Under the pieces are notes generated by a model that made no database searches, was not told where the DNA came from, and worked only from the letters and a program-made list of their open reading frames with translations. Position numbers and translations under genes: made by a program. DNA of 64,000 nt from an uncultured Rikenellaceae bacterium (lineage in GTDB: Bacteria > Bacteroidota > Bacteroidia > Bacteroidales > VadinHA17): contig CAZXSW010000001.1 of the NCBI GenBank assembly GCA_964642615.1, positions 42,945 through 106,944 on the forward strand, in the 5' to 3' direction. The stretch's first letter is position 1. Every line of letters begins with the position of its first letter. Below, piece after piece: positions 19,578-58,385 of the stretch.

Positions 19578-19654
19578 AATATTTGTTACCATCCTGTTAA
19601 TAAATAGCCCCTGCATTGTATTGATTCATCACTGAAATCAAATACTTTTGTCTT

Positions 19655-19846
19655 GTTACGGTATCACGGTAATTTTATACCGTGATCGTGATTAAGAGGG
19701 AATGCGGTGTGATTCCGCAACAGTACCCGCTGCTGTGATGCCCGATCGTTCAAACGATGATGGCTTATGAAATACCTGCCACTGTTCCTTTGCGGAATGG
19801 GAAGGCTTCATAAACCGGGATAAGTCAGAAGACCTGCCGTAAGTAA
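19655..19846 (+). promoter_or_regulatory. cobalamin (B12) riboswitch
   Basis: Conserved core AAGAGGGAATGCGGTGTGATTCCGCAACAGTACCCGCTGCTGTGA, B12 box GCCACTG (19778-19784), GGGAAGGC, and AGTCAGAAGACCTGCC. It lies directly upstream of a TonB-dependent receptor gene. Confidence 0.85.
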
Positions 19847-19849
19847 AGT

Positions 19850-21859
19850 GTGTTCAAAGCTTTCGGGAAGAAAAGCGTAGAATCATTTTCGATTCCTTTA
19901 ATCTTTCCCGGAAAGCCTGCTTTAAAATTAAAGGAATTGAAATCGCTTCTTGCATATTTCCCGCTCCTGCTCCTGCTTCCCCTGTCACTTTCGGGACAGT
20001 CAGAACCTGTTGATACCATAGTGATAAAGGAGGTTATGATAAGCGCCGGGAGAGATCCTTCAGGAATCTCCAGGTTGTCGCTTAATTTAATTGACTCATC
20101 TCTTAAAAAAGACTTTAGCCTGAATTCAGTGGCTGAACTTCTGTCGGATAACAACCTTATGCACATTCAGTCATATGGTTCAGGAGGAATAGCTTCCCCT
20201 TCCTTCCGTGGAACAGGAGCAAGCCATACAACCGTGACATGGAACGGGATCAGCATAAATAATCCGATGCCGGGCCAGTCAGATCTTTCTCTCTTGCCTT
20301 CAGGTCTGGCCGATGAGATAAATGTATTAAGCGGAGGACCTTCAATGTTATCAAACGGTGGCGCAATAGGAGGGGTCATTACCCTTGAGTCGGGAAACGA
20401 ATGGAATGAGGGTTATTCAATGTCACTGAATACAGGTACAGCAAGCTTCGGACGATATTCTGGTCTGGCTGCCCTGAAAGCCGGGAATTCAGAAATCTCC
20501 TCGGTAACAAAAGCTTATTTCAACTCATCAGAGAATGATTTCCCCTTTGTTAACTATGCTCTGTCAAATGAACCATTCACCGAAAAGAGGAAAAACAGTG
20601 AGACTCAAACCATAGGATTCCTCCAGGAGTTATACCTTAAGGGAGCAAAAAGCATGTCATCTGCCCGGGTTTGGTATAACACAACTGAACGTAATATCCC
20701 TGTCCCGATGATATCACGGCAACCCATACCGGGAGAAAGGCAGGTCGACCGCTCACTCAGAAGCCTTCTCGGATACAGGCTCAGTCTTCCCCGTTCTGAA
20801 ATTAAAGCCGATGCTGGTTTCGTAGCTGACAGACTGCTATATTCAAATCCCGAGACGTCAACAGATTCAAGAAACCTTGTAAGGACAATAACAATTAAGA
20901 CTGAAGCCAGCCCTCAGCTCGGAGAAAAGACAAAACTGTCAATTCTTGCCTCTCATGAACTTAATATTGTCAATTCAAATAATTACGACGCCAGAAAGAC
21001 AAGGAATACCACAGTGCTTGCCGTTTCTGCCTCAAGGTCAATCCTGAAGCCGCTTGCTGCCCAGGCACTGCTTAGAGGAAAACAATCAGACGCTAAGCTT
21101 ATTATTCCTGATATTGCTGCCGGACTGGAATATAAACTGCCTTTGCCTGTTGAACTGCTTATAAAGGCAAACCTGTCAGCCAACTCCAGGCTGCCCACAC
21201 TGAATGATCTTTACTGGATGCCTGGAGGAAATCCTGATCTTAAAAGCGAATATGGAGTGTCGTGGGAACTGGGACTTGACTACAGGAGCAAATCCGACCT
21301 TAACCCTGCCCTGACTGCCGGGATAGATATCTTCCGGAACAGGATAAGCAACATGATTCACTGGTATCCGGGAGAATCATCCTTCTGGAGCGCCGTAAAC
21401 CTCGGACATGTAGAGATTGCCGGAGCTGAGCTAACAGCAGCCGGTGAATACATAAGCGACCGGTTTTTTGTAAGGATCAACGGTGCCTGGTCGTACACAA
21501 GGGCCTCAGAAATCCATAATGACATGAGATTGTGGAACAGTAACCAGATAGTATATGTTCCGGTTCACATGGCAAACACGGGAATAAAAGCAGGATATGG
21601 GATGTTAAGGGCCTCTTTCAACTCCGCCTGGACCGGACGTCGCTATATCTCAACAGATAATTCAGATTATCTGCCCGGATACCTGATATGTGACCTTTTT
21701 GCCGGGGCAGCCAGGGAATGGGTTAAAGTAAAAATAGATATGACTTTCAGAATCTCAAATTTATTCAATATAAACTATCAGGCAGTTGCATGGCATCCTA
21801 TGCCAGGGAGAACATATGCCATCAGCCTGCTGCTCGAATTTAAAAACAAGCCGCTATGA
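19850..21859 (+). CDS. btuB: TonB-dependent receptor, BtuB-like (start uncertain: GTG at 19850 or in-frame TTG at 19937)
   Basis: Signal-like LLAYFPLLLLLPLSLSGQ, plug-domain motifs (IQSYGSGGIASPSFRGTGASHTTVTWNGISIN), and a C-terminal beta-barrel ending in an aromatic-rich segment. It is directly preceded by the B12 riboswitch. Confidence 0.85.
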   Translation: MFKAFGKKSVESFSIPLIFPGKPALKLKELKSLLAYFPLLLLLPLSLSGQSEPVDTIVIKEVMISAGRDPSGISRLSLNLIDSSLKKDFSLNSVAELLSDNNLMHIQSYGSGGIASPSFRGTGASHTTVTWNGISINNPMPGQSDLSLLPSGLADEINVLSGGPSMLSNGGAIGGVITLESGNEWNEGYSMSLNTGTASFGRYSGLAALKAGNSEISSVTKAYFNSSENDFPFVNYALSNEPFTEKRKNSETQTIGFLQELYLKGAKSMSSARVWYNTTERNIPVPMISRQPIPGERQVDRSLRSLLGYRLSLPRSEIKADAGFVADRLLYSNPETSTDSRNLVRTITIKTEASPQLGEKTKLSILASHELNIVNSNNYDARKTRNTTVLAVSASRSILKPLAAQALLRGKQSDAKLIIPDIAAGLEYKLPLPVELLIKANLSANSRLPTLNDLYWMPGGNPDLKSEYGVSWELGLDYRSKSDLNPALTAGIDIFRNRISNMIHWYPGESSFWSAVNLGHVEIAGAELTAAGEYISDRFFVRINGAWSYTRASEIHNDMRLWNSNQIVYVPVHMANTGIKAGYGMLRASFNSAWTGRRYISTDNSDYLPGYLICDLFAGAAREWVKVKIDMTFRISNLFNINYQAVAWHPMPGRTYAISLLLEFKNKPL

Positions 21860-35839: not shown

Positions 35840-35913
35840 GGTTCCGTAGCTCAGTTGGATAGAGCAACAGCCTTCTAAGCTGTGGGTCGAGCGTTCGAGT
35901 CGCTCCGGAATCA
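35840..35913 (+). tRNA. tRNA-Arg (anticodon UCU)
   Basis: Cloverleaf read by hand. The acceptor stem is GGTTCCG/CGGAATC with one G-U pair. The D-arm is AGCTCAGTTGGATAGAGC. The anticodon loop is CTTCTAA. The T-arm is GTTCGAGTC. No encoded CCA. Confidence 0.93.
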
Positions 35914-51928: not shown

Positions 51929-52378
51929 ATGCCAGTTGAGATCGAAAGGAAATTTCTTGTTAAAGGTGAATTCAGACACCATGCTGTCGGGTCGACAGGG
52001 ATATTTCAGGCCTATCTCTCGGTTGATCCCGGACGAACAGTAAGGCTCAGGATTACGGGTGGCAAAGCCTTTATAACTATCAAAGGCAAGGCAGGTGAAG
52101 GAGGAATCTCACGAAAGGAATGGGAGTTGCCGCTTCCTGTTGATGAGGCTGAAATTATGAAGGAAATTTGTCTGCCCGGGACTGTTGAAAAGACGCGCTA
52201 CCTGGTTCCGTCGGGTAAGCATTGTTTTGAAGTTGATGTCTTCCACGGTAGAAATGAAGGCCTTATAATAGCTGAACTTGAACTTGAAGCCGAAGATGAG
52301 TACTTTGAAAAGCCAGGCTGGCTTGGTGAAGAAGTGACAGGGAGGCCTGAGTATTACAATTCGAACCTCGTGAAATAG
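51929..52378 (+). CDS. CYTH-domain protein (class IV adenylate cyclase / triphosphatase fold)
   Basis: The N-terminal EIERKFLV (ExExK signature) and a length of about 150 aa. Confidence 0.75.
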   Translation: MPVEIERKFLVKGEFRHHAVGSTGIFQAYLSVDPGRTVRLRITGGKAFITIKGKAGEGGISRKEWELPLPVDEAEIMKEICLPGTVEKTRYLVPSGKHCFEVDVFHGRNEGLIIAELELEAEDEYFEKPGWLGEEVTGRPEYYNSNLVK

Positions 52379-52380
52379 CA

Positions 52381-52749
52381 TCACTTCCTGAAAATGAAGT
52401 ATACGGCCAGGATAAGAAAGGCAAACCCTATAAGATGATTAAGCCTGAACTGTTCGTTGCGGAAGACAAGGACAGTAAAAACTGCAAATACTGATATTGA
52501 GATAACCTCCTGGATTACCTTAAGTTCGATAAGGGAGAATGGGCCACCCGTTTCCCTGAAACCCAGGCGGTTTGCAGGAACCTGAAGGGTGTATTCAAAA
52601 AAGGCTAATCCCCAGCTGAGAAGTATGACGCTTAAGAGGCCTATATTCTCAAACCTGCTCATAGTCTTTAGCTTAAGATGTCCGTACCAGGCAAAGGTCA
52701 TGAAAACGTTCGACATGATAAGCATCACAATGGTAAGAATACCTTTCAT
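52381..52749 (-). CDS. DMT-superfamily small membrane protein (DUF486)
   Basis: 122 aa with four TM segments. The N-terminus ILTIVMLIMSNVFMTFAWYGHLK is typical of DUF486. Confidence 0.7.
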   Translation of the reverse strand: MKGILTIVMLIMSNVFMTFAWYGHLKLKTMSRFENIGLLSVILLSWGLAFFEYTLQVPANRLGFRETGGPFSLIELKVIQEVISISVFAVFTVLVFRNEQFRLNHLIGFAFLILAVYFIFRK

Positions 52750-52802
52750 ATTAAGGATTTTAATCAGTCGGCTTCAATAATTTTTAAGGTTTATGGCGGG
52801 GC

Positions 52803-53282
52803 TCAGAGTTCCTTTGAATATATCTGCTTGGGATCGCCGGGTCCATAGAAATTCTTCAGGCTTGCCTGCAGGCAGTAACCGTTTCTTCTGTAGAAAGCCT
52901 CGGTAGGAGCATAGAGAGGCCTGCCTGAAGTCTCGATCCAGAGTATCCTGCCGCCCATATCCCTGACATCGTCTTCTATGGCTTTCAGAAGGAGTGATCC
53001 CAGTTTTTTATTTCTGAAATCATTATGTACAGCTATCCAGTAAAGGTCCCAGGAATGAGTTGAAAAAGCATTTTTGCCATAATTGGCAAAGGCTTGTGTC
53101 ACTCTGTCTTCGCTTACCTTCATCCAGTAGTATCCGCTCTTCTCACTACCCTTTTCAAGTGTCTCATCGGCCAGTTCAAGGGCTGTTTCAATCTCGAACT
53201 CATAGAAGAATCCGGCTGACTTGAGTATTTCCCTTATTCTTTCCCTGTCCTCAGGGAGGATCCCTTTGATGATTTCAGTCAT
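52803..53282 (-). CDS. GNAT-family N-acetyltransferase, last gene of the KamA/ATP-grasp cluster
   Basis: 159 aa. The acetyl-CoA motif is FRNKKLGSLLL. It starts 3 bp downstream of ATP-grasp gene 2 on the same strand. Confidence 0.75.
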   Translation of the reverse strand: MTEIIKGILPEDRERIREILKSAGFFYEFEIETALELADETLEKGSEKSGYYWMKVSEDRVTQAFANYGKNAFSTHSWDLYWIAVHNDFRNKKLGSLLLKAIEDDVRDMGGRILWIETSGRPLYAPTEAFYRRNGYCLQASLKNFYGPGDPKQIYSKEL

Positions 53283-53285
53283 GAC

Positions 53286-54257
53286 TCAGTAATTAAGATC
53301 ATTAATGATTCTCTCAAGTACATCCTTAAAAGCCAGTCCAGCCTCTGCTATAGCAGCCACGAGTCCGCTGTCGGGAGACAGGCAGGGATTGGCATTTACT
53401 TCAATTACACAGGGTCTGTTAAGCTTATCTATTCTCATGTCAACCCTGGCATAACCCCTGAGTCCGAACAGATGCCAGCATTTTAGAACGGTCTCATTTA
53501 TTTCCCTTGCAAGAGTGTTGTCAAGTCTGTCGCCCGGGAATTCCCTTACAGTATTTTCGTATTCAAAGCTCGAATCGTCCCATTTGGCTTTGAAATCTAC
53601 AATCCGGGGCCTGTCGCCCCAGTTGTTGTGAAAAACCATCTCAGCGGGAGGCATAACCTGCGGACCATCAGGTCCGGCAATAATACTAATATTAAACTCC
53701 CTGCCATCTATATATTCCTGGATTATCCAGTGCGAATCATCATAGGCACTGATCATGTCGGCTGTCTCAGGACCCATGGTAAACACTGACTCACCTGTAA
53801 TGCCCAGGGAACCGTCTTCCCACACAGGCTTAATGATGTAGGAAGTTCCCTCTTTAAGCATTTTATGTTGTGACGGGGAGAAAGAAAGGGGTGTTCTGAT
53901 CCCTTCCTTCTGCAGAATGTTTCCCATCAATGTCTTGCTGGTTGTCAGGAACATAGCCTCGAGGGGATTCCCTGAGTATGGTATGGAATGCATATTAAGC
54001 ATGGCAGGAATGAAATAATTCAGTTCCCCCTTGTTGTTAATGGATTCAACCAGGTTAAATACAAAACCGGGTTTCTCTGCTGCAATAACTGCTATCTCAT
54101 CCATGAAGGCGGTGCTTATGCCCCTGGAATAACTTTCTATGCCCAGCAGCTTGAGGTTTTCAGCAACGTATTCAACCTGTTCGAGAACATCCAGCTCATC
54201 GGCCAGGGCAGCCTCTCCCGGTTTATTATAGATAATGCAGCATTTAATATTTCTCAT
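53286..54257 (-). CDS. ATP-grasp ligase, D-Ala-D-Ala-ligase-like (paralog 2)
   Basis: Ddl-like three-domain layout. Motifs IIKPVWEDGSLGI, EYIDGREFNISII and ARVDMRIDKLNRPCVIEVNANP (Mg/ATP site E-x-N). It has a 4-bp overlap with paralog 1. Confidence 0.8.
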   Translation of the reverse strand: MRNIKCCIIYNKPGEAALADELDVLEQVEYVAENLKLLGIESYSRGISTAFMDEIAVIAAEKPGFVFNLVESINNKGELNYFIPAMLNMHSIPYSGNPLEAMFLTTSKTLMGNILQKEGIRTPLSFSPSQHKMLKEGTSYIIKPVWEDGSLGITGESVFTMGPETADMISAYDDSHWIIQEYIDGREFNISIIAGPDGPQVMPPAEMVFHNNWGDRPRIVDFKAKWDDSSFEYENTVREFPGDRLDNTLAREINETVLKCWHLFGLRGYARVDMRIDKLNRPCVIEVNANPCLSPDSGLVAAIAEAGLAFKDVLERIINDLNY

Positions 54258-55228
54258 GGCAGCAGATGATGGCGTTTCAAGGCAGCTTGGACTATCATCT
54301 CAAGCAGGGTCTGGTAATCTGTTCCTGCCAGGCGTGCCAGTATGGGCAGGTCGGAATGTACAGGATTCAATCCGGCCAGGGGATTGACCTCTAGGAAACA
54401 GATCCTGCCGTTACGGTCAGCTTTCAGATCAACGCGTCCAGCATCCGTAGCATCAAGCGCCTTCCAGGCTTTCAAAGCCACTGAATAACATTCTTCGGCA
54501 AGGTCTCCCTCAATGGGAAGATAGCTGCAGTAATCCTGGTAGTTTTCCTTAACTTCCACGGAATAGGGCAGGTTGTCCCTGCAGATTATTTCCATTCCTC
54601 CGATGACTGAGGCACTGGCACCTGTACCTGTAATGCCGACAGTGAACTCCCGTCCCGGCAGATATTCTTCAACCAGGGCGGGCTGTTCAAACCTTTCAAG
54701 AAGGTATCCTGCCATAGTGCGAAGTTCTTCTTCAGAGGTTACTAGGCTTCTGGGTGTGATCCCCTTTCCTGTTCCCTCAGAAACCGGTTTTATGAACAAA
54801 GGGAATTCAAGATCACACTCACTGATGTCGTCGGGAGCATTTATAATCATGCCCGGACTAACGGGTACTCCTGCAGAAGCCACAATAAGTCTTGAAAGGT
54901 ATTTATTAAGCGACACTCCCATGATGACAGGTCCGCTGAAGACATAAGGGATTCTGTACTGGTCAAGAATTGCCGGGACCACAGATTCTCTTCCGTCGCC
55001 GTACAGGCCCTCCGCAATATTGAACACCAGATCCCATCTTTTGCCTGAAGCAAGGGCTTCAATAAGCTGGAAACAGTTGCCAACGGGTTCGGTCTCAAGT
55101 CCCATCTTTTTAAGGGCGCCTTCTATTGCATCAATAGTATCCTGCTTGTCAAATTCAGCGGTGTCCTCCATGGAATAACCACGGTCGAGGTACCAGGACC
55201 GGAGATCAAAGGTCAAACCTATTTTCAT
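54254..55228 (-). CDS. ATP-grasp ligase, D-Ala-D-Ala-ligase-like (paralog 1)
   Basis: Motifs FIKPVSEGTGKGI, EEYLPGREFTVGI and GRVDLKADRNGRICFLEVNPLAG. Confidence 0.8.
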   Translation of the reverse strand: MKIGLTFDLRSWYLDRGYSMEDTAEFDKQDTIDAIEGALKKMGLETEPVGNCFQLIEALASGKRWDLVFNIAEGLYGDGRESVVPAILDQYRIPYVFSGPVIMGVSLNKYLSRLIVASAGVPVSPGMIINAPDDISECDLEFPLFIKPVSEGTGKGITPRSLVTSEEELRTMAGYLLERFEQPALVEEYLPGREFTVGITGTGASASVIGGMEIICRDNLPYSVEVKENYQDYCSYLPIEGDLAEECYSVALKAWKALDATDAGRVDLKADRNGRICFLEVNPLAGLNPVHSDLPILARLAGTDYQTLLEMIVQAALKRHHLLP

Positions 55229-55237
55229 CAGTACTGC

Positions 55238-56479
55238 CTATTTTTCAGGATACTCACAAATGACACCCTTATAATTCCTGAGTACAATATGCTCCTCGTT
55301 ATGTTCAATCACATAATCGGGAAGGATGGGAATTTTCCCACCTCCGCCGGGGGCGTCGATAACAAAAGTCGGAACCGCATAGCCGCTTGTGAAACCGCGA
55401 AGACCTTTTATAATCTCCAGACCCTTTTTTACCGTGGTCCGGAAATGGCCGGAACCAGGTATCAGGTCACACTGGTATAGATAATAGGGCCTTACCCTGA
55501 TCTTAAGGAGTTTGTGCATGAGCTCCTTCATAACGGGAACATTATCATTTATTCCCTTAAGGAGGACAGTCTGACTGCCAAGAGGGAAGCCTCCATCGGC
55601 GAGCTTATTGCAGGCTGCGGCACACTCATCTGTTATTTCAGACGGGTGCGAGAAATGAAGACTTATAAAAAGCGGATGATATTTTTTAAGAACAGATACC
55701 AGCTTGTCAGTGATTCGCTGTGGAAGGACAACCGGCACCCTGGTCCCTATACGAATTATCTCAACATGTTCTATCTTCCTTATGTTGGAAAGAATATAAT
55801 CAAGAGTCTCATCGGAAAGGGTAAGTGGGTCTCCTCCGCTTATAAGTACATCTCTTACCTCCTTATGTTCTGAGATATAGGCAAATGCTCTTTCAAAGTC
55901 ATTTCTTCCGAGCTTGTCGAGCCTGCCGACTGAATGTGAGCGGGTACAATATCTGCAGTAGTTTGAACAGACCTGTGTAACAGTGAAAAGCACCCTGTCG
56001 GGATAACGGTGAACGATACCCCTGACCGGAGAAAAGGATTTCTCGTGCAGAGGGTCGGACTGCTCACTGGTTGATTCAATAAGCTCCTCAACCACAGGTA
56101 CAACATTCCTGCGCAAAGGATCTGAAGGTTTTGACCTGTAGATCAACGATGCAAAATACGGAGTGATCCTCAGGGGAAGGCGGCCTTTAAGATTATTAAT
56201 GGCCATAACTTCCTTGTCGGTCAGTTTCATGATCTTACGCAGATCATCAATACTGTTGAAAGTATTGCGTAACTGCCATTTCCAATCATTCCAGGATTCT
56301 GAAGTTGTTAGGGGGAAGTAACGGTGCATGAACTCCGCACTCCGGTTGCTAACTAACTGTTTTGGGATTACATTTTGCGAAAAAATCATGGTTTTCGCAC
56401 CAGGCTCTTCATCAGAAGAACAACCCACGAGGCGACCCTCTCCGCGGAGGGCAACAACCTCTCTATTGTTAGCATTCAT
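55238..56479 (-). CDS. kamA: lysine 2,3-aminomutase (KamA-family radical SAM/PLP enzyme); start uncertain (56479, 56389 or 56329)
   Basis: WNDWKWQLRN, the radical-SAM CSNYCRYC motif, and the PLP Lys in DAPGGGGK. Both Asp positions equivalent to the lysine epsilon-amine binders of clostridial LAM are retained (YQCD, VIDAP). Confidence 0.85.
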   Translation of the reverse strand: MNANNREVVALRGEGRLVGCSSDEEPGAKTMIFSQNVIPKQLVSNRSAEFMHRYFPLTTSESWNDWKWQLRNTFNSIDDLRKIMKLTDKEVMAINNLKGRLPLRITPYFASLIYRSKPSDPLRRNVVPVVEELIESTSEQSDPLHEKSFSPVRGIVHRYPDRVLFTVTQVCSNYCRYCTRSHSVGRLDKLGRNDFERAFAYISEHKEVRDVLISGGDPLTLSDETLDYILSNIRKIEHVEIIRIGTRVPVVLPQRITDKLVSVLKKYHPLFISLHFSHPSEITDECAAACNKLADGGFPLGSQTVLLKGINDNVPVMKELMHKLLKIRVRPYYLYQCDLIPGSGHFRTTVKKGLEIIKGLRGFTSGYAVPTFVIDAPGGGGKIPILPDYVIEHNEEHIVLRNYKGVICEYPEK

Positions 56480-56966
56480 AACGGTCGATGAAATACTTCA
56501 TCTTTGTTGTTAGTGTTTTGTGTGTTTAAATGGTTTTAGTTAAAAATAAATTGGGACGAAAATATATATTATGAAGATACATTGTACCACCCTTGTTCCT
56601 GAAATATTAACATCAGATTCATTTTATCAACAGGTAATTTGTATTTGTTTGATATTCAACTTTATAAAATTTAGATTTTAATAAGCTACAAGCCCTTTTT
56701 TTGCTGTTTTCAGGCATGAAAACATAGTTTGGGCAGCAGTTTTTTCCGTGTCGCGACATTAACTTATAACTATTAAAGTCAATTTCTATTTTCTTTCACA
56801 AGTATTTTATTTTTACTTCAGCATGATATCAATTTATGTGCCGGAATCTTCATCAGTGGCAAATGGTTAACCATTTTTAGGAAATTTTGATAACTTTGGA
56901 CTTCTTTTTTTGAAACAACAAGTATAGTCATTCTCTCATTACTCTAATAAACAGAACATTATCTGC

Positions 56967-58385
56967 ATGAACACTCGAGGTTCCGGATCAAGGGACGGCC
57001 TGAAAATGTTTTTCAGAGATGTTGCCGAGGCGGTTTCAGGTACCGAACAGGATTTCACCGAAGGCCGCCTGGGCAGGGCCATCCTTCTTCTGTCAATTCC
57101 TGCTGTACTGGAGATGATCATGGAGTCGGTTTTTGTTGTTGCTGATATCTTCTTTGTTTCCAGGCTGGGTTCCGATGCAGTTGCAACGGTAGGTCTTACT
57201 GAATCGCTTATTACGGTTGTATATGCAATTTCGCTCGGACTGGCAACAGCTACCACCTCAATGGTGTCAAGAAGGATAGGGGAGAAGCATCCTGACAAAG
57301 CATCAAATACTGCAGTGCAGGCTATTTTGGCAGGGTTACTTGTTTCTGTTGTCATTGCGGTTCCCGGTTTCCTGTTTGCTGAAGAGCTGCTTGATCTTAT
57401 GGGTGCCTCAAAAGAGATCTCAGCAGGCATGTCAGCCTATACCAGGATAATGCTGGGAAGCAATACTGTCATAATGCTTCTTTTCATCATAAATGCTGTT
57501 TTCAGAAGTGCAGGAGATGCTGCTGTTGCCATGAGAGTGCTGTTTTTGGGCAACCTGTTAAACATAGTACTGGATCCCTGCCTTATCTTCGGTCTGGGTC
57601 CCTTCCCTGAAATGGGAATTACAGGGGCGGCCGTGGCAACAGTCATCGGCAGGGGCATTGCCGTAATCTACCAGCTCTGGCTCCTTTTCTTTGGAAAAAT
57701 GAGGGTGTCGCTGAAATTGAGACATTTAAGAATTGACTTCCTCATAATAGCCCGGCTGTTCCGCCTTTCAATCGGATCGATAGGGCAGAACCTCATCGGT
57801 ACATCAAGCTGGATAGCTCTTGTAAGGATAATATCTGTTTTCGGAAGTGAAATAGTGGCAGGATATACCATTGCAATAAGAGTAATCACTTTTGTACTTC
57901 TTCCTTCGTGGGGAATCGCAAATTCAGCATCAACCCTTGTGGGCCAGAACCTGGGTGCCGGAAAGCCTCAGAGAGCTGAAAGATCAGTAATGGTAACCGG
58001 AGTTGTAAACATGATACTGCTCGGCCTTATAGGAATCTTCCTCATATTGTTTCCCGGTCCGGTAATAAGGCTGTTTATAGACGAGCCCGGAGTTGTTAGT
58101 TCAGGCATAGAATGTCTGAGGATCATAAGTATCGGGTTTGTTGCCTACGGCTTCGGCATGGTGTTGGTTAATTCGTTCAACGGTGCCGGTGACACAACGA
58201 CCCCTCTGAAAATCAATATTTTTGCTTTCTGGTGCGTAGAGATTCCCCTTGCCTGGTTTCTGGCTTTGAAATCGGGGATGAACGAGAGAGGTGTTTTTAT
58301 CGCCATTGTAGTTGCCGAGACACTCATGACACTCACGGCATGGCTGATATTCAGAAGGGGTAAATGGAAGTTGAAGAAAGTATGA
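56967..58385 (+). CDS. MATE-family efflux transporter
   Basis: 12 TM segments. The N-terminal MATE motif is LSIPAVLEMIMESVFVVADIFFVSRLG, with a duplicated 6-TM architecture. Confidence 0.9.
   Translation: MNTRGSGSRDGLKMFFRDVAEAVSGTEQDFTEGRLGRAILLLSIPAVLEMIMESVFVVADIFFVSRLGSDAVATVGLTESLITVVYAISLGLATATTSMVSRRIGEKHPDKASNTAVQAILAGLLVSVVIAVPGFLFAEELLDLMGASKEISAGMSAYTRIMLGSNTVIMLLFIINAVFRSAGDAAVAMRVLFLGNLLNIVLDPCLIFGLGPFPEMGITGAAVATVIGRGIAVIYQLWLLFFGKMRVSLKLRHLRIDFLIIARLFRLSIGSIGQNLIGTSSWIALVRIISVFGSEIVAGYTIAIRVITFVLLPSWGIANSASTLVGQNLGAGKPQRAERSVMVTGVVNMILLGLIGIFLILFPGPVIRLFIDEPGVVSSGIECLRIISIGFVAYGFGMVLVNSFNGAGDTTTPLKINIFAFWCVEIPLAWFLALKSGMNERGVFIAIVVAETLMTLTAWLIFRRGKWKLKKV

What the first reader, a model, noticed from the sequence alone, without database searches (positions are those of the whole stretch)
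52803..56479. Lysine 2,3-aminomutase + two Ddl-like ATP-grasp ligases + small GNAT: a candidate pathway to an undescribed beta-lysine-containing product
Four minus-strand genes are tightly packed, with gaps or overlaps of 9 bp, a 4-bp overlap, and 3 bp.

The KamA homologue keeps four features:
- The CxxxCxxC cluster.
- The PLP lysine (GGGGK).
- The Asp in YQCD.
- The Asp in IDAPGGGGK.

The two Asp positions correspond to the residues that bind the lysine epsilon-ammonium group in clostridial lysine 2,3-aminomutase. Glutamate 2,3-aminomutases replace them. The product is therefore probably beta-lysine.

Known fates of beta-lysine do not explain the gene set:
- N-epsilon-acetyl-beta-lysine osmolyte synthesis needs only an aminomutase plus an acetyltransferase (AblA/AblB).
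- EF-P beta-lysylation uses a LysRS paralogue.
- Fermentation needs further aminomutases and dehydrogenases.

None of these needs two ATP-grasp ligases. GNAT plus ATP-grasp is the logic of the dipeptide osmolyte NAGGN (made by Ngg). A plausible product here is an N-acetylated beta-lysyl di- or tripeptide, or an oligo-beta-lysine.

A DUF486/DMT membrane protein and a divergent MATE exporter flank the cluster.
Basis: partly seen in the sequence, partly recalled or inferred. Interest (0 to 1): 0.65.

Follow-up and report, generated by a model that had tools for sequence, protein, structure and literature searches.

The report
Conserved beta-lysine amide-ligase gene cassette
Four tightly packed genes (a lysine 2,3-aminomutase, two ligases derived from the cell-wall enzyme Ddl, and a small acetyltransferase) form a cassette conserved, and in places fused, across several bacterial phyla; it most likely makes a beta-lysine-containing compound that I could not find described in the searchable literature.

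Summary
Four minus-strand genes sit at 52803-56479, separated by 9 bp, a 4-bp ATGA overlap and 3 bp.

The aminomutase keeps every lysine 2,3-aminomutase catalytic and substrate residue: C125/C129/C132, R134, D293, D330 and K337.

The two ligases are not cell-wall Ddl. They score far below the NCBIfam Ddl cut-offs and have changed the D-Ala-specific residues. Both keep all ATP, Mg and catalytic residues.

The order KamA-AG1-AG2-GNAT recurs well beyond Bacteroidales. It appears in Desulfovibrio/Oleidesulfovibrio, Syntrophobacteraceae, a Spirochaetes MAG, Woeseia and 80 diverse metagenome loci. KamA lies upstream of AG1 in 45/50 loci, and AG2 downstream in 51/55. Natural AG1-AG2 and KamA-AG1 fusion proteins exist.

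Accessory genes recur:
- a GNAT-acetylpolyamine-amidohydrolase-like deacetylase;
- DMT_6/DUF486, sometimes placed inside the cassette;
- non-orthologous efflux-type transporters;
- a sigma-54 activator in Desulfobacterota.

The acetyltransferase already has a crystal structure, PDB 2R7H, from O. alaskensis G20.

The cassette aminomutases share an unreported N-terminal acidic E-P-P-G/S motif and lack the C-terminal tail of the clostridial enzyme.

Ten full-text searches found no paper on this cassette. The product remains unknown. The best reading is a beta-lysine amide or oligopeptide made by two ATP-dependent ligations plus N-acetylation.

The parts
55238..56479 (-). KamA-family radical-SAM/PLP lysine 2,3-aminomutase (413 aa), cassette subfamily. 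It should supply beta-lysine.
   Evidence: - Pfam finds Radical_SAM + LAM_C.
- NCBIfam AblA scores 505.7 bits, just under the 525.4 cut-off, and is the best of all models.
- E = 3e-136 to 2A5H, with C125/C129/C132, R134, D293, D330 and K337 all conserved.
- The same seven residues are invariant in 136 cassette homologues.
- The protein ends 31 aa after GGGGK, so it lacks the C-terminal tail of the clostridial enzyme.
56393..56419 (-). Conserved acidic motif S-S-D-E-E-P-G-A-K (residues 21-29) in the N-terminal extension of KamA. It is the Bacteroidales variant of the cross-phylum x-E-E-x-E-P-P-G/S motif. Its function is unknown.
   Evidence: - The motif varies only at its acidic positions (e.g. 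SSEEEPGAK, SSDDEPGAK, SSDEEPGAE) across the 60 distinct N-terminal tails printed for the 74 Bacteroidales loci.
- E/D/K/Q-P-P occurs in the tail of 45 of 53 diverse loci. In 500 shuffles of the tails the mean was 7.9 and the maximum 17.
- Clostridial LAM 2A5H lacks the extension.
- AlphaFold2 predicts the equivalent tail of a natural KamA-AG1 fusion to be disordered, with pLDDT about 30.
54254..55228 (-). AG1: a Ddl-derived ATP-grasp amide ligase (324 aa). It is catalytically complete but carries non-Ddl specificity residues.
   Evidence: - Pfam finds Dala_Dala_lig_C.
- The best NCBIfam Ddl score is 134 bits against a cut-off of 243.
- The AG1 half of a modelled natural KamA-AG1 fusion (P0367, about 47% identical to the window AG1) matches Ddl structures: TM-score normalised to the target 0.82, 3.0 A rmsd.
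- K97, K144, E180, E187, K215, R255, D257, E270, N272, E15 and S281 are kept in 88-89 of 89 family members. S150 becomes T, Y216 becomes mostly E, and L282 becomes D (invariant).
- It is fused to AG2 in dozens of protein clusters and to KamA in about a dozen.
53286..54257 (-). AG2: a second, divergent Ddl-derived ATP-grasp amide ligase (323 aa), overlapping AG1 by the 4-bp ATGA.
   Evidence: - Pfam finds Dala_Dala_lig_C and ATP-grasp_3.
- NCBIfam Ddl scores 93.5 bits against a cut-off of 243.
- It is 25% identical to AG1.
- K97, K144, E187, K215, R255, D257, E270 and N272 are kept across the AG2 family. Y216 becomes W, G276 becomes C and L282 becomes G, all invariant in 52 of 52. S150 becomes A or G.
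- AG2 lies downstream of AG1 in 51 of 55 diverse loci.
52803..53282 (-). Small GNAT N-acetyltransferase (159 aa), orthologue of the protein crystallised as PDB 2R7H.
   Evidence: - Pfam finds Acetyltransf_1.
- E = 2.9e-30 to 2R7H, named 'putative D-alanine N-acetyltransferase of GNAT family'.
- The 2R7H sequence cluster holds ABB39838.1 of Oleidesulfovibrio alaskensis G20. That protein is encoded directly after KamA-AG1-AG2.
- It is not an AblB: TIGR03827 scores 16 bits against a cut-off of 205.
- A GNAT follows AG2 in 72 of 76 Bacteroidales loci and in 27 of 37 diverse loci.
52381..52749 (-). DMT_6/DUF486 four-helix membrane protein (122 aa), 53 nt downstream of the GNAT. It is an accessory and is probably the transporter for the product.
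   Evidence: - Pfam DMT_6, E = 7e-42.
- It lies directly after the GNAT in 21 of 72 Bacteroidales loci.
- It lies after the GNAT in a Spirochaetes cassette, at 47% identity.
- It lies between AG2 and the GNAT in L096, L100 and L130.
56547..56632 (-). Conserved non-coding block 76-153 nt upstream of the kamA ATG (TGTTGATAAAATG ... TGTTAATATTT ... TACAATGTAT ... ATATATATTTT). It is probably the promoter and an operator of the cassette.
   Evidence: - An alignment of 300 nt upstream of kamA from 67 Bacteroidales loci shows at least 80% column identity only in this block.
- No Rfam family matches it.
- The function is inferred, not tested.
56967..58385 (+). Divergent MATE efflux transporter (472 aa). 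It is a lineage-specific neighbour, not a core part.
   Evidence: - Pfam MatE and NCBIfam matE.
- It is adjacent in only 17 of 59 Bacteroidales loci and was not detected in any of the 80 metagenome loci.

Best explanation
This is one copy of a widespread, vertically and horizontally distributed biosynthetic cassette.

**Proposed steps**
1. The KamA-type enzyme converts L-lysine to beta-lysine. This is inferred from complete conservation of the catalytic and substrate-binding residues.
2. Two Ddl-derived ATP-grasp ligases, AG1 and AG2, each make an ATP-dependent amide bond through an acyl-phosphate. Both are predicted to be catalytically competent, and they work as a pair, because they are translationally coupled here and fused elsewhere.
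3. AG1 keeps the Ddl glutamate that holds the donor's ammonium group. It gains two acidic residues in the acceptor pocket, which fits a basic acceptor such as lysine, beta-lysine or a polyamine-like amine. AG2 has a more hydrophobic pocket (W, C, G, A).
4. The small GNAT N-acetylates one amine. This is most plausibly the terminal epsilon-amine, because many cassettes add an acetylpolyamine-amidohydrolase-type deacetylase that could later remove such an acetyl group.

**Product.** It would be a small N-acetylated (or, in other lineages, transiently acetylated) beta-lysine amide, di- or tripeptide or short oligomer. Here it would be moved across the membrane by the DMT_6 protein.

**Status of the evidence.**
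- Shown: gene identities, residue conservation, co-conservation and fusions.
- Inferred: every chemical step and the nature of the product.
For: **Anatomy**
- Gene positions and junctions.

**Aminomutase**
- Lysine 2,3-aminomutase residues are conserved in the window protein and in 136 cassette homologues.
- AblA is the best NCBIfam model for the window protein and for five distant cassette KamAs, at 447-506 bits.

**Ligases**
- All ATP, Mg and catalytic residues are retained, with family-specific specificity residues.
- The fold matches Ddl with TM-score 0.82.

**Co-conservation**
- All 80 Bacteroidales loci keep the order KamA-AG1-AG2, followed by the GNAT in 72 of 76.
- In 80 diverse metagenome loci (GC 29-75%), KamA lies upstream of AG1 in 45 of 50, AG2 downstream in 51 of 55, and a GNAT downstream in 27 of 37.

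**Fusion proteins linking the parts**
- AG1-AG2, about 650-730 aa, in many clusters.
- KamA-AG1, about 750-826 aa.
- Hist_deacetyl-GNAT, 757 aa.
- Sources.

**Accessory deacetylase**
- Its best solved relatives are acetylpolyamine amidohydrolases, E = 6e-71.
- It carries an N-terminal GNAT-like domain.

**Transporters**
- DMT_6 is embedded in the cassette in three loci.
- Non-orthologous transporters lie next to it: MATE here, MFS in L083 and L172, DUF3667 in L083 and L171.
Against: - No enzyme activity, metabolite or phenotype is known for any member.
- No second precursor-supplying gene is present, so the co-substrates are unknown.
- AlphaFold2 gave no confident AG1-AG2 or KamA-AG1 interface (pTM 0.56 and 0.51), so a fixed complex is not supported computationally.
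- The window's lineage lacks the deacetylase, and the GNAT was not detected in 4 of 76 Bacteroidales loci and 10 of 37 diverse loci. The acetylation step may therefore be dispensable or variable.
- The Asp pair shows a cationic side chain but does not by itself exclude ornithine or arginine.
- The conserved N-terminal motif of KamA is not explained by this model.
Confidence: 0.6

Rival explanations
1. Protein modification rather than a free metabolite. One or both ATP-grasp ligases attach beta-lysine to a protein carboxylate or lysine. The target could be EF-P, or the aminomutase's own acidic N-terminal E-P-P-G/S tail, which would then act as a built-in carrier in the manner of LysW/LysX, RimK/S6 or TTL/tubulin. 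The GNAT and the amidohydrolase would process or release the tethered group.
For: - A short acidic motif is conserved across phyla in an otherwise variable, disordered KamA tail: 45 of 53 diverse loci and all 74 Bacteroidales loci.
- From general knowledge, ATP-grasp enzymes commonly modify acidic tails, and beta-lysine is used for EF-P modification in E. coli.
- AG2 gives faint hits to the TTL and RimK-related models.
Against: - AG1 and AG2 are Ddl-type, not RimK-, LysX- or TTL-type.
- AG1 keeps the Glu15 equivalent, which binds a free donor ammonium group.
- Transporters recur next to or inside the cassette, which fits a small molecule.
- No efp or epmA gene lies nearby, and the EpmB model scores only 256 bits against a cut-off of 369.
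- AlphaFold2 does not dock the tail.
Confidence: 0.12
2. The aminomutase acts on a different basic amino acid (arginine, ornithine or another), so the product is not beta-lysine-based.
For: - The protein falls just below the AblA equivalog cut-off, as do all cassette KamAs.
- The subfamily differs from LAM at both termini.
Against: - AblA is always the best model, about 50 bits above the glutamate model and about 100 bits above the arginine model.
- The score shortfall is explained by the missing C-terminal roughly 57 model positions (match to positions 3-360 of 417).
- D293, D330 and R134 are invariant.
Confidence: 0.1
3. An AblA/AblB-type N-epsilon-acetyl-beta-lysine osmolyte operon into which two ordinary cell-wall Ddl genes happen to be inserted.
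For: - A KamA plus a GNAT is the gene content of the methanogen abl operon (general knowledge; also cited for Pelobacter in PMC3543383).
- The best database hits of AG1 and AG2 are Ddl.
Against: - The GNAT scores 16 bits against AblB's cut-off of 205.
- AG1 and AG2 score 134 and 93 bits against a Ddl cut-off of 243, and their D-Ala-specific residues are replaced.
- The ligases are the most constant partners of KamA and are fused to it.
- No mur genes are nearby.
Confidence: 0.03
4. Lysine fermentation or catabolism, with KamA as the first step of the 3,5-diaminohexanoate pathway.
For: KamA is the first enzyme of clostridial lysine fermentation (general knowledge).
Against: - No 5,6-aminomutase, 3,5-diaminohexanoate dehydrogenase, cleavage-enzyme or CoA-transferase genes appear in the window neighbourhood or in any related locus examined.
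Confidence: 0.02

Closest known systems
AblA/AblB N-epsilon-acetyl-beta-lysine pathway of methanogens (also predicted in Pelobacter; PMC3543383)
   Same: A lysine 2,3-aminomutase of the same branch (AblA is the best NCBIfam model) is encoded together with a GNAT acetyltransferase. Beta-lysine is the presumed intermediate.
   Different: - Two ATP-grasp ligases sit between the two genes and are fused to KamA or to each other in other lineages.
- The GNAT is a 159-aa single-domain protein unrelated to AblB at family level (16 bits against 205).
- The aminomutase lacks the C-terminal tail and has an N-terminal acidic motif.
- Many cassettes add a deacetylase.
D-alanine--D-alanine ligase (Ddl/VanA family)
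   Same: - Same fold: TM-score 0.82 to DdlB.
- Same ATP, Mg and catalytic residues: K97, K144, E180 (Q in the window's AG2), E187, K215, R255, D257, E270, N272.
- By inference, the same acyl-phosphate mechanism.
   Different: - 22-29% identity, and far below the family cut-offs.
- Position 150 is T in AG1 and A or G in AG2. Position 216 is E in AG1 and W in AG2. Position 282 is D in AG1 and G in AG2. AG2 also has G276C.
- The N-terminal GGxSxExEVS motif is replaced: AG1 has TYDLR...AEFD.
- The two occur as a heterologous pair next to KamA, not in a mur/ddl context.
NAGGN synthesis (Ngg, a GNAT plus ATP-grasp bifunctional enzyme, with AsnO)
   Same: The logic is shared: N-acetylation plus ATP-grasp peptide-bond formation gives a small N-acetylated peptide.
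   Different: - No amidotransferase gene is present.
- The ligases here are Ddl-type and there are two of them.
- The dedicated precursor enzyme is an aminomutase.
- Homology to Ngg was not seen among the NCBIfam hits, but it was not tested specifically.
EpmB/EpmA EF-P beta-lysylation
   Same: A KamA-family enzyme without the long C-terminal tail supplies beta-lysine for an ATP-dependent ligation.
   Different: - The ligase in that system is a LysRS paralogue, not an ATP-grasp enzyme.
- The EpmB model scores 256 bits against a cut-off of 369.
- No efp or epmA gene is nearby.
- GNAT, deacetylase and transporter partners have no place in the EF-P pathway.
PDB 2R7H, 'putative D-alanine N-acetyltransferase of GNAT family' (O. 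alaskensis G20, ABB39838.1)
   Same: It is an orthologue of the window's GNAT (E = 2.9e-30, aligned end to end) and is encoded in the same KamA-AG1-AG2-GNAT cassette.
   Different: It is a structure only, with no assigned function. My reading is that its name reflects the neighbouring 'Ddl' annotations rather than an assay.

Membership tests
Lysine 2,3-aminomutase (KamA/AblA; radical SAM + PLP) | CxxxCxxC [4Fe-4S]/SAM cluster motif | tested here: met
   C171/C175/C178 align with C125/C129/C132 of 2A5H. They are invariant in 136 cassette homologues.
Lysine 2,3-aminomutase (KamA/AblA; radical SAM + PLP) | PLP-binding lysine (K337) in the GGGGK motif | tested here: met
   K382 aligns with K337 and is invariant.
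Lysine 2,3-aminomutase (KamA/AblA; radical SAM + PLP) | Substrate contacts: Asp293 and Asp330 for the epsilon-ammonium group and Arg134 for the carboxylate. The roles are from the literature as I recall it. Glutamate 2,3-aminomutase replaces the two Asp. | tested here: met
   D338, D375 and R180 align with D293, D330 and R134. They are invariant in 136 homologues.
Lysine 2,3-aminomutase (KamA/AblA; radical SAM + PLP) | Score at or above the curated AblA equivalog cut-off (TIGR03820, 525.4 bits) | tested here: not met
   The window protein scores 505.7 bits and matches model positions 3-360 of 417. Five distant cassette KamAs score 447-504 bits. The shortfall coincides with the missing C-terminal region.
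Lysine 2,3-aminomutase (KamA/AblA; radical SAM + PLP) | C-terminal tail with the Cys-rich (CxCxxC) zinc site of clostridial LAM. The role is recalled from the 2A5H description and was not re-read. | tested here: not met
   The window protein ends 31 aa after GGGGK, where LAM continues for 79 aa. Of 148 cassette KamAs, 145 end 31-58 aa after GGGGK and the other three continue into a fused AG1. None of the 69 diverse ones has CxCxxC within 90 aa of GGGGK.
Lysine 2,3-aminomutase (KamA/AblA; radical SAM + PLP) | Conversion of L-lysine to beta-lysine | not testable with these tools
   This needs an anaerobic enzyme assay.
D-alanine--D-alanine ligase (Ddl) | ATP-grasp fold with the ATP, Mg and catalytic residues | tested here: met
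   See for the residues in both AG1 and AG2, and for the fold of the AG1 domain.
D-alanine--D-alanine ligase (Ddl) | Score at or above the curated Ddl cut-offs (NF002378, 243 bits; TIGR01205, 245.65 bits) | tested here: not met
   AG1 scores 134.4 and 112.1 bits. AG2 scores 93.5 and 77.7 bits.
D-alanine--D-alanine ligase (Ddl) | The D-Ala-binding triad and pocket residues S150, Y216 and L282, together with E15 and S281 | tested here: not met
   AG1 has T150, E216 and D282. AG2 has G/A150, W216, G282 and C276, and A at position 281 in most family members.
D-alanine--D-alanine ligase (Ddl) | Peptidoglycan (mur/ftsQ) genomic context | tested here: not met
   The neighbours are KamA, GNAT, DMT_6, MATE, CYTH and UDG. 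The same KamA and GNAT partners occur in other phyla.
AblA/AblB N-epsilon-acetyl-beta-lysine system | AblB-type beta-lysine acetyltransferase (TIGR03827, cut-off 205.1 bits) | tested here: not met
   16.1 bits, E = 0.006.
EF-P beta-lysylation (EpmA/EpmB) | EpmB equivalog score (TIGR03821, cut-off 369.3 bits) and a linked LysRS-paralogue ligase | tested here: not met
   256.3 bits. No aaRS-like gene is among the cassette neighbours in the window or in the related loci examined.
Amino-group carrier protein systems (LysW/LysX) | RimK/LysX-type ATP-grasp ligase plus a small carrier protein with an acidic C-terminus | tested here: not met
   The ligases are Ddl-type. No small carrier gene is conserved. 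The only candidate acidic peptide is the KamA N-terminal motif, and its role is untested.
Acetylpolyamine amidohydrolase / HDAC-type deacetylase (accessory part, absent from the window) | A Hist_deacetyl domain closest to the acetylpolyamine amidohydrolases | tested here: met
   The L084 protein matches 9GKZ, 6PHR and 3Q9B with E = 6e-71 to 2.5e-64. Pfam finds Hist_deacetyl plus an N-terminal GNAT-like domain. A tblastn search found no homologue in the 64-kb window.

The most novel reading that the evidence does not exclude
The conserved acidic E-E-x-E-P-P-G/S peptide at the disordered N-terminus of the cassette aminomutase (S-S-D-E-E-P-G-A-K in this window) is the working end of the system. 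The ATP-grasp ligases would use a glutamate of this tail as a covalent anchor. Beta-lysine would then be built up, acetylated and finally released by the amidohydrolase while tethered to the enzyme that made it. That would make the aminomutase a self-contained amino-group-carrier enzyme, analogous to LysW/LysX, and would extend such chemistry to Ddl-type ligases across at least five phyla.
Probability: 0.07. Interest if true: 0.85.

Novelty: new variant of a known kind. Interest (0 to 1): 0.68.

Why it matters
- **Possible new metabolite class.** If the inference holds, bacteria from several phyla share an unrecognised beta-lysine-derived metabolite made without NRPS machinery. The groups seen are Bacteroidales, Desulfobacterota, Spirochaetota, Planctomycetota and Gammaproteobacteria, mostly anaerobes from sediments, digesters and fens. 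Such a compound could be a new compatible solute, a polyamine-like cation or a signalling or antibiotic molecule.
- **Annotation.** The cassette would give function to hundreds of genes now annotated 'D-alanine--D-alanine ligase', to an orphan crystal structure (2R7H), and possibly to the DUF486/DMT_6 and DUF3667 membrane families.
- **Enzymology.** It would show how the Ddl scaffold was recruited twice for non-cell-wall chemistry.
- **Testability.** The cassette occurs in O. alaskensis G20, for which an archived transposon library exists (PMC4045070), so the question can be tested directly.

Tried and rejected
1. **Riboswitch or leader RNA upstream of kamA.** Rfam at the gathering threshold on the whole window, and a permissive scan of 56300-57100, found nothing relevant.
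2. **Promoter and terminator scan of 52000-57100.** Counts were close to the shuffle expectation and there was no convincing internal terminator.
3. **AlphaFold2 of a natural KamA-AG1 fusion (P0367).** Both domains fold, but pTM is 0.51 and the N-terminal tail has pLDDT about 30. There is no predicted docking of the motif and no fixed interface.
4. **AlphaFold2 of a natural AG1-AG2 fusion (P0335).** Mean pLDDT is 92 but pTM is 0.56, so it gives no support for or against a Ddl-like heterodimer.
5. **Unsupervised clustering of neighbour ORFs with a naive ORF caller.** It was confounded by long antisense ORFs in high-GC loci. It recovered only the ATP-grasp, GNAT, deacetylase, DMT_6 and CxxCxxC groups, so I relied on tblastn counts instead.
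6. **Literature.** Terms covered aminomutase with ATP-grasp, beta-lysine with ATP-grasp, KamA with Ddl and GNAT, 2R7H, Dde_3040-3044, and acetyl-beta-lysine with sulfate reducers. No paper describes the cassette. Aravind's 2009 amidoligase paper is not held. Subscription journals are not covered.
7. **Plasmid search with AG1.** No match.
8. **EF-P polyproline-stalling reading of the E-P-P-G motif.** I considered this less likely because the Bacteroidales variant, E-E-P-G-A, has a single proline yet is just as strictly conserved.
9. **The first genome scan.** It returned only close, fully syntenic Bacteroidales relatives, which is not independent evidence of co-conservation. I resolved this with the representative search, a search seeded with a fusion protein, and a metagenome scan led by a consensus sequence.

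Full report
**1. Observation**

The ORF list and the junction sequences confirm the finding exactly. On the minus strand lie:
- a KamA homologue, 55238-56479 (413 aa);
- a first Ddl-like ATP-grasp gene, here AG1, 54254-55228 (324 aa);
- a second, here AG2, 53286-54257 (323 aa);
- a GNAT, 52803-53282 (159 aa).

They are separated by 9 nt, a 4-nt ATGA overlap and 3 nt. A DMT_6/DUF486 gene (52381-52749) follows after 53 nt. A MATE gene (56967-58385) is divergent, across a 487-bp spacer. The wider neighbours are unrelated housekeeping genes: CYTH, UDG, a Cys/Met PLP enzyme, an RF-1-domain protein, EamA and a rhamnosidase.

**2. The aminomutase**

It aligns with clostridial lysine 2,3-aminomutase 2A5H at E = 3e-136. 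C125/C129/C132, R134, D293, D330 and K337 are all conserved. The same seven positions are invariant in 77 Bacteroidales and 59 diverse cassette homologues.

AblA (lysine) is the best NCBIfam model at 505.7 bits. The glutamate model scores 453, the arginine model 404 and EpmB 256. The AblA score is just under the 525.4 cut-off, and five distant cassette KamAs behave the same way at 447-504 bits.

The shortfall has a structural cause. Apart from three that continue into a fused AG1, all cassette KamAs stop 31-58 residues after GGGGK, where the clostridial enzyme continues for 79. None carries a CxCxxC motif. From memory, that C-terminal tail holds the zinc site of LAM.

Conversely, the cassette KamAs have an N-terminal extension that LAM lacks.
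- It is variable and is predicted to be disordered (pLDDT about 30 in a natural fusion).
- It carries a short acidic motif, x-E-E-x-E-P-P-G/S, in 45 of 53 diverse loci. Shuffled tails gave a mean of 7.9 and a maximum of 17.
- In the Bacteroidales loci the motif is the near-constant variant S-S-D-E-E-P-G-A-K, varying only at its acidic positions. In the window this is residues 21-29, at 56393-56419.

These are therefore lysine-type aminomutases of a distinct subfamily.

**3. The two ligases**

Their only significant relatives among solved structures are Ddl and VanA enzymes, with E values near 1e-22 for AG1 and 1e-12 for AG2. The AG1 domain of a modelled fusion superposes on DdlB with TM-score 0.82.

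They nonetheless fail the Ddl family tests:
- They score 134 and 93 bits against a cut-off of 243.
- They are 29% and 22% identical to E. coli DdlB, and 25% identical to each other.

A family-wide alignment of 89 AG1 and 52 AG2 sequences with DdlB gives the following.

| DdlB residue | AG1 family | AG2 family |
|---|---|---|
| K97, K144, E187, K215, R255, D257, E270, N272 | kept | kept |
| E180 | kept | E in 51 of 52; Q in the window's AG2 |
| E15 (binds the donor ammonium group) | kept | variable (E/D/S/Q) |
| S150 | T | A or G |
| Y216 | mostly E | W (invariant) |
| G276 | kept | C (invariant) |
| S281 | kept | mostly A |
| L282 | D (invariant) | G (invariant) |

Both are thus predicted to be active acyl-phosphate-forming amide ligases with two different, non-D-Ala specificities. 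AG1's acceptor pocket has become acidic, which I read as fitting a cationic acceptor. This is an inference.

**4. Co-conservation**

The first genome scan returned 80 Bacteroidales MAGs in which KamA, AG1 and AG2 always keep this order, followed by the GNAT in 72 of 76. The surrounding synteny is conserved too, so this is weak evidence on its own.

Independent evidence came from three sources.

(a) Representative search and fusion proteins.
- Many proteins of 650-730 aa are AG1-AG2 fusions in that order.
- P0154 is a KamA-AG1 fusion.
- A search seeded with one fusion found AG1-AG2 fusions in Planctomycetales, Spirochaetes, Gamma- and Deltaproteobacteria MAGs.
- It also found KamA-AG1 fusions in Syntrophobacteraceae and Desulfoferrobacter.

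(b) Genomic contexts of these and other members.

| Source | Gene order |
|---|---|
| Syntrophobacteraceae | [KamA-AG1]-AG2-GNAT |
| A 5.7-Mb genome | KamA-[AG1-AG2]-GNAT |
| Spirochaetes | KamA-[AG1-AG2]-deacetylase-GNAT-DMT_6 |
| L087 | KamA-AG1-AG2-[deacetylase-GNAT] |
| D. mangrovi | sigma-54 activator, then KamA-AG1-AG2-GNAT-[GNAT-deacetylase] |
| O. alaskensis G20 | sigma-54 activator, then KamA-AG1-AG2-GNAT |
| Woeseia | KamA-AG1-(AG2 not called)-deacetylase-GNAT-DUF3667 |

(c) A metagenome scan led by a family consensus sequence. It gave 80 loci with GC content from 29% to 75%. KamA lies directly upstream of AG1 in 45 of 50 testable loci. AG2 lies downstream in 51 of 55, a GNAT in 27 of 37, and the deacetylase in 8 of 37.

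**5. Accessory parts**

- **Deacetylase.** Its catalytic domain is closest to the acetylpolyamine amidohydrolases, E = 6e-71. It carries an N-terminal GNAT-like domain. No homologue is present in the window.
- **DMT_6.** It follows the GNAT in 21 of 72 Bacteroidales loci and in a Spirochaetes locus. In L096, L100 and L130 it lies between AG2 and the GNAT. It therefore belongs functionally to the system.
- **MATE.** The MATE gene is adjacent in only 17 of 59 Bacteroidales loci. Other lineages have a divergent MFS transporter or a DUF3667 membrane protein instead. This looks like non-orthologous replacement of a transporter and favours a small, transported product.
- **CxxCxxCC (YkgJ-like) domain.** It is fused to AG1 or encoded alone in some loci.

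**6. The acetyltransferase**

It is an orthologue of PDB 2R7H (E = 2.9e-30). The sequence cluster of 2R7H contains ABB39838.1 of O. alaskensis G20, and that protein is encoded in the cassette. The G20 transposon-library paper names the adjacent PFL-like gene Dde_3039. The cassette is therefore probably Dde_3041-3044, an inference from position. The GNAT is not an AblB (16 bits against 205).

**7. Mechanism**

Shown:
- a lysine-type aminomutase, two catalytically complete Ddl-derived ligases and a GNAT form a conserved functional unit;
- the unit has optional deacetylase and transporter modules.

Inferred:
- KamA makes beta-lysine.
- AG1 and AG2 each form one amide bond involving it, with an amino-acid-like donor and a cationic acceptor for AG1.
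- The GNAT acetylates an amine. This is probably the epsilon-amine, given the acetylpolyamine-type deacetylase and the AblB precedent.
- In lineages with the deacetylase, the acetyl group may be a transient protecting group. One role could be to prevent lactam formation from an activated beta-lysine, which is my speculation. In this Bacteroidales lineage the product may stay acetylated.
- DMT_6 moves the product.

The exact product (di- or tripeptide, oligo-beta-lysine or polyamine conjugate) cannot be decided from sequence.

**8. Rivals**

- **Protein modification**, including a self-tethering role for the KamA tail, is not excluded. About 0.12.
- **A different basic substrate.** About 0.1.
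- **Ordinary Ddl with an AblAB-type pathway, or lysine fermentation.** Both are effectively refuted by the family tests and the gene context.

**9. Novelty**

Ten full-text searches and the locus tags returned nothing on this cassette. NCBIfam has no dedicated model for AG1, AG2 or the GNAT. The public names are 'D-alanine--D-alanine ligase', 'hypothetical protein' or 'RimI-like'.

The parts are known enzyme kinds. The combination, the KamA subfamily signature and the product are undescribed, as far as the held literature shows. Subscription journals were not searchable.

**10. Limits**

- No activity data exist for any member.
- The AlphaFold2 models gave no interface information.
- The roles of Asp293 and Asp330, of the LAM zinc tail and of the DdlB residues are taken from my knowledge of the literature, not re-read here.

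Noticed in passing
window 56393-56419 (minus strand); L081-L173 KamA N-termini: Cassette aminomutases carry a short acidic motif in an otherwise variable, disordered N-terminal extension. The motif is x-E-E-x-E-P-P-G/S, or S-S-D-E-E-P-G-A-K in Bacteroidales. In one large subgroup the protein begins ME(N/S)ETLFxEExEPPG. Clostridial LAM has no such tail. The function is unknown; it could be a docking peptide, a ligase substrate or a translational feature.
   Followed up: partly
window 55238-55330 (3' end of kamA); all related loci: Cassette KamAs lack the C-terminal roughly 50 residues of clostridial LAM and AblA and have no CxCxxC motif. This explains why they fall just under the NCBIfam AblA cut-off, and it suggests a different oligomeric organisation.
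   Followed up: yes
window 56547-56632 (minus strand): This block is the only well-conserved part of the 300 nt upstream of kamA in an alignment of 67 Bacteroidales loci. It reads TGTTGATAAAATG..TGTTAATATTT..TACAATGTAT..ATATATATTTT. It is probably a promoter plus an operator. No Rfam family matches it.
   Followed up: partly
L168, L169, L173, L081 (Desulfobacterota loci): A sigma-54 enhancer-binding protein with a weakly scoring, receiver-like N-terminal domain is encoded immediately upstream of the cassette in D. mangrovi, O. alaskensis and Syntrophobacteraceae. This suggests RpoN-dependent control there. No equivalent gene is present in the window.
   Followed up: partly
L083:10500-11348 and L171:8767-9630: A DUF3667 protein follows the GNAT in two distant loci: the Woeseia MAG (L171) and an unnamed 5.7-Mb genome (L083). 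A divergent MFS transporter precedes kamA in L083 and L172. Together with DMT_6 and MATE, this suggests that different membrane proteins have been recruited to the same cassette.
   Followed up: no
L087:8001-9545; L163:7410-7934; P0132, P0347: A CxxCxxCC (PF03692, YkgJ-like) metal-binding domain is fused to the N-terminus of AG1, or encoded as a separate small gene just upstream of it, in Planctomycetota-like loci.
   Followed up: no
P0128, P0149, P0150, P0158 and others; P0256: A second class of double ATP-grasp proteins has two AG1-like halves rather than AG1-AG2. There is also a 980-aa protein with leucine-rich repeats fused to an AG1-like domain. Their contexts were not examined.
   Followed up: no
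L171:5180-6505: In the Woeseia locus the region where AG2 should lie is called as two short overlapping ORFs with no Pfam hit. This could be a frameshifted or decayed AG2, or an assembly error.
   Followed up: no
PDB 2R7H / ABB39838.1: The deposited name 'putative D-alanine N-acetyltransferase' appears to derive from the neighbouring genes annotated as Ddl. In context the protein is the GNAT of the KamA cassette.
   Followed up: yes
window 19642-19855 (+) and 35840-35913 (+): A cobalamin riboswitch (104.7 bits) and a tRNA gene are the only Rfam gathering-threshold matches in the window. They are unrelated to the finding.
   Followed up: no
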